A stretch of 8,147 bases of DNA from a virus (IMGVR_UViG_3300028996_000031), one strand, 5' to 3'. Shown: positions 602-5,054, numbered from the stretch's first letter. Made by a program: numbers and translations. The notes: generated by a model from the sequence alone, not told the origin.

Positions 602-1459
602 TTATTTTGTTTGCGATGGGACGNNNNNNNNNNNNNNNNNNNNNNNNNNNTTACTGGCTTCATGTTTCAGTTTTTTTAATCGCTTGATTCGTTCTTCGAT
701 TGAACTGGCAATTTTGGCAACATTAGAAATTTCTGGGCTTGGGGCTGTTTGTAGATCAATACACTGAATTTTTTTTAGATCTTCTTTGAGCGCAACAAAA
801 AAATCACGAAGATTGTTTTCTGGTAAAAGAACATGACTAAATGATACTTTTCCTATGTAGAATTCACTTATTGCCTCTCCAGACTCGCGCATGTGTTCAT
901 TCATTGCGAACAGAATTGTTTTGGTATTCTTATCAGTTTCCACTTCAGAAAGGGTTACAAGGCCTGTCTGGCTCTTGGTCAAAAAACGAATTTCTGTAGC
1001 ACCAAGTCTTCCGGAGTAATTGGAATTTTTACTATTTTCGATGGTAGAAGATAGATAATCTATTGTGGGTTTGATATTTCGTATCGTTTCAATATTTTTT
1101 TTCCACGCTTCACATTTACTTTTTGCGGTGCTAATAATTTCCCGATTGGTTTCGAGTTGCATAAATTTATTGAAACTAAGAACGTTTTCACCAAATTCCA
1201 CACCAAATTCGTTTTTACCACATTTATTTCCGATGTTGGTTTCAATGCCACTAGATGTTTTTACAATATAACCCATTTGATGTGGTTGGTTGCAACCAGT
1301 TAGACCACAGTGGATTTCTTCTTTAAATTTGTAGTAACCAATTATCTCCTCAAGTTGTTGAACTCCTTTGTCTATAGTGGTGACAAAGTTTGGTCTGGAT
1401 ATAATTTCCTCCCAGTTTTCAAGTTTCTCGATGCCGTTTTCAGTTCTGAGAAAAATCAT
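602..1459 (-). CDS. Orphan hypothetical protein (~285 aa), AT-rich, antisense to the late operon; C-terminus crosses an N-run
   Basis: Long minus-strand ORF. ATG at 1459 is preceded by GGAG with 6-nt spacing (the ATG at 1471 lies inside that SD, so 1459 is preferred). Codon usage is strongly A/T-biased relative to flanking phage genes. No P-loop, no hydrophobic segments and no family I recognise. The 3' end (stop at 602-604) is read across the 27-N run at 624-650 and is uncertain. Confidence 0.7.
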   Translation of the reverse strand: MIFLRTENGIEKLENWEEIISRPNFVTTIDKGVQQLEEIIGYYKFKEEIHCGLTGCNQPHQMGYIVKTSSGIETNIGNKCGKNEFGVEFGENVLSFNKFMQLETNREIISTAKSKCEAWKKNIETIRNIKPTIDYLSSTIENSKNSNYSGRLGATEIRFLTKSQTGLVTLSEVETDKNTKTILFAMNEHMRESGEAISEFYIGKVSFSHVLLPENNLRDFFVALKEDLKKIQCIDLQTAPSPEISNVAKIASSIEERIKRLKKLKHEASXXXXXXXXXXVPSQTK

Positions 1460-1682
1460 GAATCGCTCCATTTGAAAGTGGACCGTTTATTTTATCGGCA
1501 TAAAAACGAGAACACCACAAGTTATTTTATTACCGAATACTTGGTGAAGAGGGGGAACTTCGCCACACAGCTTAAACCCGCCGCCGTGCGGTTTTTTTTG
1601 TGCCACTTATCTCGGATAGACATGGTGAATGCGCTGGTGGAGGAAGTAAGAGTGATTTTTAATCAGTTGATTTTTTGAGTGC

Positions 1683-1711
1683 TTGCAACATTGATTTCGT
1701 AACGTTATTAT
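1683..1711 (+). promoter_or_regulatory. Sigma70-type promoter for the tRNA array
   Basis: TTGCAA (1683-1688), 17-bp spacer, TATTAT (1706-1711), then a GC-rich discriminator CCTGCGCCC (1712-1720) as in stable-RNA promoters. The first tRNA begins at 1721. Confidence 0.5.
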
Positions 1712-1720
1712 CCTGCGCCC

Positions 1721-1796
1721 GGCCCTTTAGCTCAGTGGTGAGAGCGAGCGACTCATAATCGCCAGGTCGCTGGTTCAAATCCAGCAAGGGCCACCA
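1721..1796 (+). tRNA. tRNA-Ile2 (anticodon CAU, lysidine type) or tRNA-Met; 76 nt with encoded CCA
   Basis: Cloverleaf folded by hand: acceptor GGCCCTT/AAGGGCC, D-arm GCTC..GAGC, anticodon loop CTCATAA (CAT at 1754-1756), T-loop TTCAAAT, discriminator A plus CCA. C4-G69 and C5-G68 in the acceptor stem and overall resemblance to ileX-type tRNA favour Ile2. Confidence 0.85.
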
Positions 1797-1797
1797 G

Positions 1798-1874
1798 CCG
1801 CCACTAGCTCATCAGGAAAGAGCGTCAACCCTTTAAGTTGAGTGTGCGAGGTTCGAGTCCCCGGTGGCGGTCCA
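1798..1874 (+). tRNA. Atypical tRNA-like gene, anticodon TTT (Lys-like) with C instead of U at position 33; possibly a variant or pseudo-tRNA
   Basis: Cloverleaf: acceptor CCGCCAC/GTGGCGG (starts with C1-G72), D-stem GCTC/GAGC with GG in the loop, anticodon stem TCAAC/GTTGA (perfect), loop CCTTTAA (1830-1836), T-loop TTCGAGT with one A-C mismatch in the T-stem, discriminator T plus CCA. One substitution from a Lys(UUU) loop, two from an Arg(UCU) loop. Confidence 0.55.
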
Positions 1875-1876
1875 GT

Positions 1877-1952
<76 letters not shown>

Positions 1953-1955
1953 TAT

Positions 1956-2030
<75 letters not shown>

Positions 2031-2236: not shown

Positions 2237-2262
2237 CGCCCGCGTTTGCGGGTTTTTCTTTT
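2237..2262 (+). terminator. Intrinsic terminator between the tRNA array and the holin gene
   Basis: CCCGC (2239-2243) / GCGGG (2248-2252) stem with GTTT loop, followed by TTTTTCTTTT (2253-2262). Lies 60 bp upstream of the S start. Confidence 0.6.
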
Positions 2263-2322
2263 CAAATCCCTTTCATTTCTCAGTGTAAAACTACGCCATC
2301 CGTTATTTGCGGAGGTGAGGCT

Positions 2323-4262: not shown

Positions 4263-4499
4263 ATGTAGATTAACATTAAATCGGATTATTTTTAGTGCTG
4301 AATGTGAAATTTAAATAAAAAGGACTCTTCCATGAGTCAAAATCCTTGAAATCTTAAGGGTAAGATAAAAGGTCATTAGACAGAATGACACGTTTTATTA
4401 ATAAATAAAGCTATTGTTTCATTCGTGTGTTTTTCTTTACAAAAGTAATCCTTGCTATGGTTGGTTAATCATGCGTTAANNNNNNNNNNTGTTCTGGTT

Positions 4500-4540
4500 T
4501 GTTACAAAATTATCTGAAGCAGTCATTGTTATAATTTTAT
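4500..4540 (+). promoter_or_regulatory. Putative csp promoter (extended -10 TGtTATAAT at 4527-4535) with AT-rich upstream region
   Basis: TG at 4527-4528 followed by TATAAT at 4530-4535; weak -35. Would give a ~95-nt 5'UTR, typical of cold-shock genes. A 10-N run at 4480-4489 lies just upstream. Confidence 0.4.
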
Positions 4541-4637
4541 TATTTGTACCTCTTGAGATTTCCTTGTTGGTTTTTCTCTCTGATATTTTTTTCGGACCAT
4601 TCTGCCCAAGGGCTAACTTCTTCAAAAGGTAATAATG

Positions 4638-4850
4638 ATGTCTAACAAAATGACTGGTTTAGTGAAATGGTTTAACCCTGAAAAAGGTTTTGGTTTCATC
4701 ACGCCGAAAGATGGTAGCAAAGATGTGTTTGTCCATTTCTCAGCTATTCAGAGCAACGATTTCAAAACGTTAACTGAGAATCAGCAAGTCGAATTTGGTA
4801 TTGAGAACGGACCTAAAGGCCCCGCGGCTGTTCATGTAGTGGCACTTTGA
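4638..4850 (+). CDS. cspI: Cold-shock protein, CspA family (70 aa), CspI-like
   Basis: [44 protein letters not shown]... contains the RNP1 (KGFGFI) and RNP2 (VFVHF) motifs of cold-shock domains. Matches my recollection of Qin-encoded CspI. Second of two tandem ATGs chosen on homology grounds. Confidence 0.9.
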
Positions 4851-5054
4851 GGTAGAAAATATTACAAACCATATTCACTTTAGATGCCCGTGTTGCCATG
4901 GTTCTCAGTATAGAACATCATCTTTTGATGTTTCTGACAGGAATCCTTTCGGGGCAAAATGTATCTTTTGTAAATCAATGATGATTACATTTGATAATAT
5001 TTCACAATACTTAAATGTTAGCCGTCTGTCGTTAGATTTAAGAAAGTGAAAATG

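What the first reader, a model, noticed from the sequence alone, without database searches (positions are those of the whole stretch)
1798..1874. Atypical tRNA: Lys-like TTT anticodon with C33 and a C1-G72 acceptor end
The second tRNA folds into a cloverleaf, but its anticodon loop is CCTTTAA (C at the near-universal U33), its T-stem has an A-C mismatch and its acceptor stem starts with C. It is one substitution from a Lys(UUU) loop and two from an Arg(UCU) loop. Either it is a decaying pseudo-tRNA, or it is a variant tRNA whose altered loop resists an anticodon nuclease, as has been reported for phage-encoded tRNA variants that neutralise tRNA-cleaving defences. tRNA-Lys(UUU) is a classic target of such nucleases.
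Basis: partly seen in the sequence, partly recalled or inferred. Interest (0 to 1): 0.65.

Follow-up and report, generated by a model that had tools for sequence, protein, structure and literature searches.

The report
Remoulded prophage argN tRNA, doubtful function
The odd "lysine" tRNA gene is real, but it is a mutated copy of a known phage arginine tRNA carried by about 15% of E. coli genomes; it is more likely a drifting, poorly working relic than a proven anti-defence tRNA.

Summary
Window 1798-1874 encodes a cloverleaf RNA with anticodon loop CCTTTAA (C33, UUU), C1-G72, U73, an A51·C63 mismatch and an encoded CCA.

It is not a relative of host tRNA-Lys (52% identity). It is an allele of argN, the tRNA-Arg(UCG) that follows ileZ downstream of antiterminator Q in Stx and other lambdoid phages (84% identity). 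C1-G72 and U73 are argN family traits, and the weak Rfam score is shared (44 vs 43 bits).

The branch leading to this allele carries three fully compensated stem-pair switches plus three anticodon-loop changes. So it evolved as a structured RNA while its anticodon changed.

Signs of relaxed constraint since then:
- The allele occurs in 798 of 5426 complete E. coli genomes, but only 279 carry the intact form.
- Two D-arm-damaged forms (393 genomes) are not annotated as tRNA and score below the Rfam threshold.
- In published work, C33 stops E. coli TsaBCDE from making t6A37.
- The proven nuclease-evading T5 tRNA-Lys keeps U33 and A73.
- The neighbouring Thr(UGU) is identical to host thrU.

By sequence the RNA lacks the published AriB and P2-OLD recognition motifs, so the anti-nuclease idea is not excluded. 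It is untested.

The parts
1580..1600 (+). Intrinsic-terminator-like hairpin plus T run upstream of the tRNA operon (tR'-like, downstream of Q)
   Evidence: GCCGCCGTGCGGT + TTTTTTTT; Q antiterminator domain at 117-419
1683..1711 (+). Sigma-70-like promoter TTGCAA-17-TATTAT, 9 nt before the first tRNA, followed by a GC-rich discriminator
   Evidence: 9/12 match; consensus match only, not shown to be active
1721..1796 (+). tRNA 1: ileZ-type tRNA-Ile2 (anticodon CAT), intact
   Evidence: 72.5 bits; RefSeq annotation tRNA-Ile; pi 0.005 per site across 95 loci
1798..1874 (+). tRNA 2, the finding: argN-derived tRNA-shaped gene, anticodon loop CCTTTAA (C33 at 1831, TTT at 1832-1834), C1-G72, U73, A51·C63 (1849/1861), CCA encoded
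1877..1952 (+). tRNA 3: Thr(UGU), 76/76 identical to E. coli K-12 thrU
1956..2030 (+). tRNA 4: Gly(UCC), 75/75 identical to E. coli K-12 glyT
2238..2263 (+). Intrinsic-terminator-like hairpin plus T run between the tRNA operon and the holin gene (2323-2538)

Best explanation
The gene is a remoulded allele of argN, the phage tRNA-Arg(UCG) that sits in the second slot after ileZ, downstream of antiterminator Q, in lambdoid prophages.

Inferred: it is transcribed with the four-tRNA operon, from a promoter-like site at 1683-1711 and/or the Q-dependent late transcript, and probably cut out as a tRNA-shaped RNA.

Shown: on the branch leading to it, three stem pairs were switched with full compensation, and the anticodon loop changed at positions 33, 35 and 36 (CTTCGAA to CCTTTAA).

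Inferred, and most likely: the product is now a poor or dead decoder.
- C33 removes the U-turn uridine and, in E. coli, blocks t6A37 formation.
- The body lacks the A73 of Lys tRNAs.
- It lost C35, the main ArgRS determinant.
- E. coli already has abundant tRNA-Lys(UUU), so an extra copy offers no codon-supply benefit.

It therefore persists as a dispensable passenger between selected neighbours and is drifting towards loss.
For: Ancestry:
- 84% identity to Stx2 argN and 82% to typical argN, against 52% to host lysT and 65% to argU.
- Same position after ileZ and downstream of Q.
- Similar weak Rfam score (44.4 vs 43.0 bits for Stx2 argN; typical argN 56-58).

Structure was selected on its branch:
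- The only three pairs of the family that change on both sides all separate this clade from argN: 7-66 UA>CG, 27-43 CG>UA, 30-40 GC>AU. U·G intermediates survive in Stx2 argN.

Relaxed constraint now:
- 798 of 5426 E. coli genomes carry it: 279 the intact allele, 171 allele B (C4U, U8C, C11U), 222 allele C (deletion of U12, C70U).
- B and C are not annotated in RefSeq and fall below 29 bits, while Ile2, Thr or argO in the same loci stay at 68-74 bits.
- Other observed lesions are G24A (35.6 bits), C7G, and deletion of the anticodon arm.
- Diversity per site is 0.058 in its first 21 nt, against 0.005 for the same stretch of Ile2 and 0.022 for that of Thr.
- Slot 2 as a whole is decay-prone: no tRNA is called there in 38 of 218 sampled loci, and argN/argO chimeras and an L131-type wreck occur.

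Other points:
- The allele is confined to E. coli and Shigella among 185,579 species genomes, so it is young.
- E. coli TsaBCDE cannot modify a U33C tRNA (PMC8887486).
- The annotation of two induced phages carrying the identical allele omits it.
- The rest of the operon decodes rare codons (AUA, ACA, GGA). A Lys(UUU) tRNA does not fit that logic. K-12 has five lys genes in the single region fetched.
Against: - The intact allele has a complete cloverleaf, an encoded CCA and all tertiary landmarks except U33.
- Its loop is invariant at positions 33-38 in more than 110 sampled copies.
- Three compensated pair switches mean the RNA was under structural selection for part of its history.
- No U33 ancestor or revertant exists in IMG/VR or JGI metagenomes. 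C33 is therefore fixed, not a sporadic lesion.
- C33 occurs in about 20 other well-paired phage tRNA-Lys(UUU) genes and in many other phage isoacceptors. C33 alone does not prove death.
- The neighbouring Gly tRNA is also fairly polymorphic (pi 0.043), so the contrast with neighbours is not absolute.
- Allele counts reflect clonal expansions, only about a dozen independent mutation events.
- Expression, processing, charging and modification were not measured.
Confidence: 0.5

Rival explanations
1. It is a working, nuclease-resistant tRNA-Lys(UUU). LysRS charges it through the UUU anticodon. It reads AAA/AAG during lytic growth when host tRNA-Lys is destroyed by PrrC, PARIS AriB, P2-OLD or similar nucleases, and it escapes them because of C33 and its foreign anticodon stem and D loop.
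For: - tRNA-Lys(UUU) is a target of PrrC, AriB and, more weakly, P2-OLD (PMC11464382, PMC12409363, PMC12445682).
- AriB needs U36AAUC|A41 and U16. This RNA has UAAGUU and C16.
- P2-OLD needs paired CNG at 28-30/40-42. argN has CAG/CUG there, and the compensated G30-C40>A-U switch turned it into CAA/UUG.
- C33 flanks the PrrC cut site.
- The cloverleaf is intact, CCA is encoded, there is a promoter-like site of its own, and the stem switches are compensated.
- Induced, viable phages carry the intact allele.
- Other lambdoid phages carry Asn(GUU) and a diverged Thr(UGU) downstream of Q, the other AriB targets (PMC3636060).
- C33 Lys(UUU) tRNAs recur in phage arrays: 24 contigs vs 2 with A33 or G33.
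Against: - The validated evader, T5 tRNA-Lys, keeps the canonical loop CTTTTAA, U33, G1-C72 and A73. Its resistance maps to the stem and D loop.
- This RNA has U73 and C1-G72, and its homology is to argN rather than to any Lys tRNA.
- C33 blocks t6A37 by the E. coli enzyme. From established knowledge, ASL-Lys(UUU) needs t6A37 and/or mnm5s2U34 to bind ribosomes.
- The partner Thr(UGU) is identical to host thrU, which is cleaved by both AriB and OLD and does not rescue when overexpressed. The operon is therefore not an evasion kit.
- About half of carriers have D-arm-damaged alleles.
- C33 is not Lys-specific in phages.
- K. lactis gamma-toxin, the one anticodon nuclease tested with U33C in the papers read, cuts a U33C substrate normally.
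Confidence: 0.25
2. It is a non-decoding but useful tRNA mimic: a decoy that binds and titrates a tRNA-targeting nuclease or a tRNA-modifying enzyme without being consumed.
For: - The tRNA shape is preserved by compensated changes while decoding determinants are degraded.
- The AriB paper raises non-productive complexes of viral tRNAs with effectors as a possibility.
- T5 encodes several stable tRNA-like RNAs of unknown function.
Against: - There is no direct evidence.
- In the OLD study, resistant phage tRNA did not protect host thrU, so that system shows no competitive inhibition.
- The D-arm-damaged alleles spread widely.
- A decoy for Lys-specific nucleases would be expected to keep their recognition motifs. 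This RNA lacks those of AriB and OLD.
Confidence: 0.08
3. It is a structural placeholder. The acceptor/T-arm minihelix is kept because RNase P cleavage at its 5' end, 1 nt after the CCA of Ile2, helps mature the neighbouring selected tRNAs. Decoding is irrelevant.
For: - Spacers are only 1, 2 and 3 nt.
- All high-frequency lesions (U8C, A9G, C11U, deletion of U12) lie in the D arm or the 8-9 linker, not in the acceptor or T arm.
- The 7-66 pair was switched with compensation.
- From established knowledge, RNase P separates closely spaced E. coli tRNA transcripts.
Against: - The sample that shows an intact 3' half was selected with a pattern that fixed that half.
- In the ileZ-anchored sample, forms with a deleted arm and a damaged T arm exist. 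L131-type wrecks also follow an intact Ile2, so Ile2 does not need a tRNA-like neighbour.
- Two of the three compensated pairs are in the anticodon stem, which RNase P does not require.
Confidence: 0.07

Closest known systems
argN, the tRNA-Arg(UCG) of Stx-converting and other lambdoid phages (ileZ-argN-argO cluster downstream of Q)
   Same: Same slot after ileZ. 82-84% identity. Same C1-G72 acceptor end, U73, A20, 9-nt D loop and encoded CCA. The Stx2 allele shares the A51·C63 T-stem mismatch and a similar weak Rfam score.
   Different: Loop CCTTTAA instead of CTTCGAA (U33C, C35U, G36U). Three stem pairs are switched (7-66, 27-43, 30-40). It lost C35, the main ArgRS determinant, and lost the CNG motifs in the anticodon stem. 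Its downstream partners are thrU and glyT copies instead of argO.
T5 tRNA-Lys(UUU), which neutralises PARIS (Burman et al. 2024, PMC11464382; Belukhina et al. 2025, PMC12409363)
   Same: Phage-encoded, with anticodon UUU. It differs from host tRNA-Lys at AriB-critical positions 39-41 and 16.
   Different: T5 tRNA-Lys is a recognisable Lys tRNA with G1-C72, A73 and the canonical loop CTTTTAA with U33, and its rescue of infection is shown experimentally. The window RNA has C33, U73, C1-G72 and Arg ancestry, and no functional data.
Phage tRNA-Thr(UGU) variants that resist P2-OLD (Govande et al. 2025, PMC12445682)
   Same: [quoted passage not shown]
   Different: Those tRNAs replace the prime OLD target thrU. 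Here the Thr(UGU) copy is the cleavable host sequence, and the motif loss is in a tRNA whose decoding ability is doubtful.
tRNA remoulding (anticodon-shift) events and tRNA pseudogenes in prophages
   Same: A tRNA gene whose anticodon changed to another amino-acid family while the body stayed that of the parent. Later lesions and loss of detectability resemble pseudogene decay. The precedent for identity change by anticodon mutation (Saks, Sampson and Abelson 1998) is cited from memory.
   Different: Remoulding here comes with loss of the near-universal U33. Neither a new function nor complete loss of function has been shown.

Membership tests
Canonical elongator tRNA (Rfam RF00005) | Cloverleaf with 7/4/5/5-bp stems and a score above the family threshold | tested here: met
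   44.4 bits vs gathering score 29; 20 of 21 pairs standard, one A·C in the T stem
Canonical elongator tRNA (Rfam RF00005) | Conserved landmarks U8, A14, G18G19, T54-T55-C56, A58, 3' CCA | tested here: met
   All present in the window allele. U8 is lost in allele B and the D stem is damaged in allele C.
Canonical elongator tRNA (Rfam RF00005) | U33 (U-turn uridine) | tested here: not met
   C at 1831. C33 is fixed in all sampled copies, and no U33 form exists in IMG/VR or JGI metagenomes.
E. coli-type tRNA-Lys(UUU) | Anticodon U34-U35-U36 (major LysRS determinant) | tested here: met
   TTT at 1832-1834
E. coli-type tRNA-Lys(UUU) | Discriminator A73 and homology to Lys tRNAs | tested here: not met
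   U73. 52% identity to K-12 lysT vs 84% to argN. The role of A73 is from established identity-element literature.
E. coli-type tRNA-Lys(UUU) | Loop context permitting t6A37 (C32, U33, U36, A37, A38) | tested here: not met
   C33. EcTsaBCDE does not modify a U33C tRNA (PMC8887486). That result was obtained on tRNA-Met(i), not on this RNA.
E. coli-type tRNA-Lys(UUU) | Aminoacylation with lysine and decoding of AAA/AAG | not testable with these tools
   Needs acid-gel Northern blotting, mass spectrometry or a suppression assay
argN family (phage tRNA-Arg UCG, slot 2 after ileZ) | Synteny (Q, ileZ, slot 2) and sequence homology | tested here: met
argN family (phage tRNA-Arg UCG, slot 2 after ileZ) | Anticodon UCG with C35 (ArgRS determinant); A20 | tested here: not met
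   The anticodon is UUU (U35). A20 is retained.
Nuclease-evading phage tRNAs (T5 tRNA-Lys vs AriB; phage tRNA-Thr vs P2-OLD) | Same anticodon as a targeted host tRNA, with substitutions at the nuclease's recognition or cleavage positions | tested here: met
   UUU. UAAGUU and C16 instead of UAAUCA and U16. CAA/UUG instead of CNG/CNG. This holds by sequence only and is expected from its Arg ancestry.
Nuclease-evading phage tRNAs (T5 tRNA-Lys vs AriB; phage tRNA-Thr vs P2-OLD) | Retains full decoding competence (canonical loop, identity elements) | tested here: not met
   C33 and U73. T5 tRNA-Lys has U33 and A73.
Nuclease-evading phage tRNAs (T5 tRNA-Lys vs AriB; phage tRNA-Thr vs P2-OLD) | Resists cleavage and rescues infection | not testable with these tools
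   Needs in vitro cleavage and plaque-rescue assays
tRNA pseudogene | Relaxed constraint relative to functional neighbours; accumulation of disabling lesions | tested here: inconclusive
   For: alleles B and C (393 of 798 genomes) are undetectable as tRNA while Ile2, Thr or argO stay intact, and pi is 0.058 vs 0.005. Against: three compensated switches on its branch, an invariant loop, a Gly neighbour that is also variable, and few independent events.

The most novel reading that the evidence does not exclude
A lambdoid-phage tRNA was recruited from Arg(UCG) to Lys(UUU) by anticodon remoulding. It was made invisible to several tRNA-cutting defences at once: C33 next to the PrrC site and no t6A37, no UAAUC|A or U16 for PARIS AriB, and no CNG pair for P2-OLD. 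It still supplies lysine decoding when host tRNA-Lys is destroyed. More broadly, C33 would be a recurrent phage tRNA adaptation, seen here in hundreds of phage tRNAs of many isoacceptors.
Probability: 0.2. Interest if true: 0.75.

Novelty: new variant of a known kind. Interest (0 to 1): 0.4.

Why it matters
If the RNA is only a relic, the practical lesson concerns annotation. RefSeq labels it "tRNA-Lys" in hundreds of E. coli genomes, although it is an argN derivative with doubtful decoding ability, and other pipelines skip it.

If it works, it would be the first temperate-phage counterpart of the T5 anti-PARIS tRNA. It would also be an example of identity remoulding used for defence evasion, in prophages present in about 15% of E. 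coli, including pathogenic lineages.

Either way, the slot-2 series is a natural experiment in tRNA gene birth, remoulding and death inside one operon. The series runs from intact argN through the Stx2 allele with G3·U70 and the Lys-like allele to the D-arm-damaged alleles, chimeras and wrecks.

Tried and rejected
1. Arm swap from another tRNA. Exact searches for the arm TCAAC-CCTTTAA-GTTGA outside the family and for its U33 form TCAAC-YTTTTAA-GTTGA found no tRNA in IMG/VR, only unrelated hairpins. One metagenomic tRNA-Asn shares the stem (L445), but it lies in an unrelated AT-rich 41-tRNA array. I judged this coincidental.

2. U33 ancestor or revertant. None was found in IMG/VR or in 241 M metagenome records.

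3. Intermediates with argN stems and C33.

4. Link to a neighbouring defence gene. The 289-aa minus-strand ORF between Q and the tRNAs has no Pfam or PADLOC hit, matches only phrog_7003 of unknown function, and is absent from all 88 other Lys-like loci with enough flank. No link.

5. C33 as a Lys-specific signature. Rejected. C33 is at least as common in phage Ile(GAU), Asn(GUU) and Thr(UGU) tRNAs.

6. Literature on ileZ, argN and argO. Nothing relevant was found in the searchable library.

7. MFE folding. Uninformative, because neither this RNA nor the intact Ile2 folds to a cloverleaf as its MFE.

8. tRNAscan-SE isotype scoring could not be run. The Rfam tRNA model and RefSeq annotation status were used instead.

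Full report
**What is there.** The window is part of a lambdoid E. coli prophage. It is 100% identical over the 601-base tRNA region queried (1600-2200) to isolate F719, NZ_OY754392.
- The gene order is the C-terminal part of antiterminator Q (117-419), a 289-aa unknown ORF on the other strand, a terminator-like hairpin (1580-1592), a promoter-like site TTGCAA-17-TATTAT (1683-1711), four tandem tRNA genes, another terminator (2238-2253), then holin, DUF1327, lysozyme, Rz, a cspA-like gene and Nu1.
- ARAGORN and Rfam both call four tRNAs: Ile2(CAT) 1721-1796, the finding at 1798-1874, Thr(TGT) 1877-1952 and Gly(TCC) 1956-2030.
- The Rfam score is 44.4 bits (E 4e-07), against 65-74 for the neighbours.

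**What it is related to.** It is not a Lys tRNA by descent.
- The stretch from upstream of the first tRNA to the end of the second aligns at 89% with the ileZ-argN region of Stx2 phages.
- The gene itself is 84% identical to Stx2 argN and 82% to a typical argN. It is 52% identical to K-12 lysT and 65% to argU.
- argN is a tRNA-Arg with anticodon UCG and loop CTTCGAA.
- An ileZ-anchored sample of IMG/VR prophage contigs shows a diverse argN family in this slot. C1-G72 is present in 39, and U73 in all, of the 41 distinct alleles.
- The A·C mismatch is shared with the Stx2 allele, whose Rfam score (43.0) is as weak as that of the window gene. Typical argN scores 56-58.
- So three of the four oddities are inherited. 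Only the loop is new: U33C, C35U and G36U.

**How it evolved.** I counted pairs on the 41-allele alignment.
- 96.6% of cells are paired.
- Only three pairs change on both sides, and all three separate the Lys-like clade from argN: 7-66 U-A to C-G, 27-43 C-G to U-A, and 30-40 G-C to A-U. U·G intermediates at two of them survive in the Stx2 allele.
- The branch that produced the new loop therefore also fixed six stem substitutions that all preserve Watson-Crick pairing. The RNA was under selection for its fold for at least part of that branch.
- The order of loop and stem changes is unknown. No form with the new stems and a non-C33 loop exists in IMG/VR or in the JGI metagenomes.
- No other tRNA carrying this arm was found, so an arm swap has no support.
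- Among 185,579 species genomes, the allele is confined to E. coli and Shigella flexneri. It is therefore young, and invariance of its loop in more than 110 sampled copies says little about selection.

**What has happened since.** The allele is in 798 of 5426 complete E. coli genomes.
- 279 genomes have the window sequence.
- 171 have allele B (C4U, U8C, C11U).
- 222 have allele C (deletion of U12 in the D stem plus C70U), typical of EHEC PPompW prophages, where an IS element sits just downstream.
- B and C are not annotated as tRNA in RefSeq and fall below the Rfam threshold. Ile2, Thr or argO in the same loci keep 68-74 bits.
- Rarer lesions include G24A (35.6 bits), C7G and deletion of the anticodon arm.
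- In 95 loci with the four-tRNA arrangement, diversity per site is 0.058 in the first 21 nt of this gene. It is 0.005 for the same stretch of Ile2 and 0.022 for that of Thr. Gly is also variable (0.043).
- Slot 2 in general is decay-prone. No tRNA is called there in 38 of 218 sampled loci, and argN/argO chimeras and a grossly altered L131-type form occur.
- Caveats: the allele counts reflect clonal expansions and only about a dozen independent mutations, and the first IMG/VR sample fixed the 3' two-thirds of the gene by design.

**Can it decode?** Nothing here measures expression or charging.
- From the literature read, E. coli TsaBCDE cannot add t6A37 to a U33C tRNA (PMC8887486).
- From established knowledge, U33 makes the U-turn, and the anticodon stem-loop of tRNA-Lys(UUU) needs t6A37 and/or mnm5s2U34 to bind the ribosome.
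- LysRS reads the UUU anticodon but also prefers A73. This RNA has U73.
- It has also lost C35, the main ArgRS determinant.
- The other three tRNAs of the operon read rare codons (AUA, ACA, GGA). Thr and Gly are exact copies of host thrU and glyT.
- E. coli has many tRNA-Lys genes, five of them in the one region fetched, so an extra weak Lys tRNA has no codon-supply rationale.

**The anti-nuclease idea.** It is timely and cannot be dismissed.
- PARIS AriB cuts tRNA-Lys(UUU), Thr(UGU) and Asn(GUU) at U36AAUC|A41 and reads U16 (PMC12409363).
- P2-OLD cuts tRNAs with paired CNG motifs at 28-30/40-42, with thrU as prime target and Lys(UUU) as a lesser one (PMC12445682).
- The window RNA has UAAGUU, C16 and CAA/UUG, so by sequence it should escape both. 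The compensated 30-40 switch is exactly what removed the CNG pair present in argN.
- However, these differences follow from its Arg ancestry.
- The validated evader, T5 tRNA-Lys, keeps U33, the canonical loop, G1-C72 and A73.
- The Thr(UGU) beside it is the cleavable host sequence, which did not rescue OLD toxicity when overexpressed.
- Gamma-toxin, the one anticodon nuclease tested with U33C in the papers read, was indifferent to it.
- C33 is not Lys-specific. In IMG/VR, C32-C33 loops occur in Ile(GAU), Asn(GUU), Thr(UGU), Lys(UUU), Ala and Val tRNAs with well-paired stems. 188 of 1177 unique tRNAs in those arrays have C33.
- This last point cuts both ways. It shows that C33 tRNAs are probably usable in some phage-host systems, which keeps the functional reading alive.

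**Verdict.** The gene is an argN-derived, anticodon-remoulded, tRNA-shaped gene.
- Most likely (about 0.5) it is a poorly functional or dead decoder that persists between selected neighbours and is decaying.
- A working nuclease-resistant Lys tRNA is the main rival (about 0.25).
- Decoy and processing-placeholder roles are minor rivals.
- It is a new variant of a known kind (prophage tRNA or pseudo-tRNA). It is already annotated as tRNA-Lys in RefSeq, but I found no description of it in the searchable literature.
- Interest is moderate. The decisive experiments are simple and are listed separately.

Noticed in passing
window 1877-1952 and 1956-2030: The third and fourth tRNAs are 100% identical to E. 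coli K-12 thrU (76/76) and glyT (75/75). They are joined by only 3 nt, although tyrU and more than 100 nt lie between these genes in the host operon. thrU is the prime target of P2-OLD and a prime target of PARIS AriB, and the prophage copy keeps the cleavable CUG/CAG and UAAUC|A motifs.
   Followed up: partly
L002:1650-1726 (Stx2a_F349 argN) and L003:1683-1758 (PPompW allele): The Stx2-phage argN allele and the EHEC PPompW Lys-like allele carry G3·U70, the classic AlaRS identity pair. The window allele and typical argN have G3-C70. Stx2 argN might be mischarged with alanine, or it might itself be degenerate: it has three wobble pairs plus one mismatch and scores 43 bits.
   Followed up: no
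IMG/VR loci L303-L430 (e.g. L303:7671-7746, L313:165-240): C33 instead of U33 recurs in well-paired phage tRNAs of many isoacceptors (Ile GAU, Asn GUU, Thr UGU, Lys UUU, Ala, Val, Pro) inside large tRNA arrays. 188 of 1177 unique tRNAs in these loci have C33, against 5 with A or G. Phage T5 has none. No denominator was available for phage tRNAs in general.
   Followed up: partly
L568:319-394 (phage SfI, downstream of Q): The Thr(UGU) of SfI/P21-type lambdoid phages has a 4-bp anticodon stem without CNG motifs and UAAGCG instead of UAAUCA. These are the features reported for P2-OLD-resistant phage tRNA-Thr, and they should also escape AriB. SfI also carries Asn(GUU), another AriB target whose purpose the authors could not explain.
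   Followed up: partly
L131, L137, L132 and related loci (slot after ileZ): The second tRNA slot decays in several independent ways. One form has the anticodon arm replaced by an odd 24-nt segment and a T loop GCGGGTC. Another is an argN 5' half fused to an argO 3' half. A third has the anticodon arm deleted. In all of them ileZ stays at 72.5 bits.
   Followed up: partly
window 624-650: A run of 27 N (masked or unresolved bases) lies inside the 289-aa minus-strand ORF 602-1471. This ORF matches only phrog_7003 (unknown function), has no Pfam or PADLOC hit, and is absent from the other Lys-like loci examined.
   Followed up: partly
window 4492-4896: The prophage carries a cspA-like cold-shock gene (CDS 4635-4850) with a full-length match to the cspA thermoregulator 5' UTR (Rfam RF01766, 113 bits), between the lysis and packaging genes.
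   Followed up: no
L445:7580-13283: A metagenome contig holds 41 tRNA genes in under 6 kb, with many repeated Pro, Lys, Asn, Tyr and Gly copies.
   Followed up: no
L570 and L571 (vB_EcoM-606R7, vB_EcoS-689R5) vs L572 (PhiR47_1) and RefSeq genomes: Annotation pipelines disagree on this gene. RefSeq genome records and the PhiR47_1 record call it tRNA-Lys. The two induced-phage records carrying the identical sequence list only Met, Thr and Gly.
   Followed up: yes
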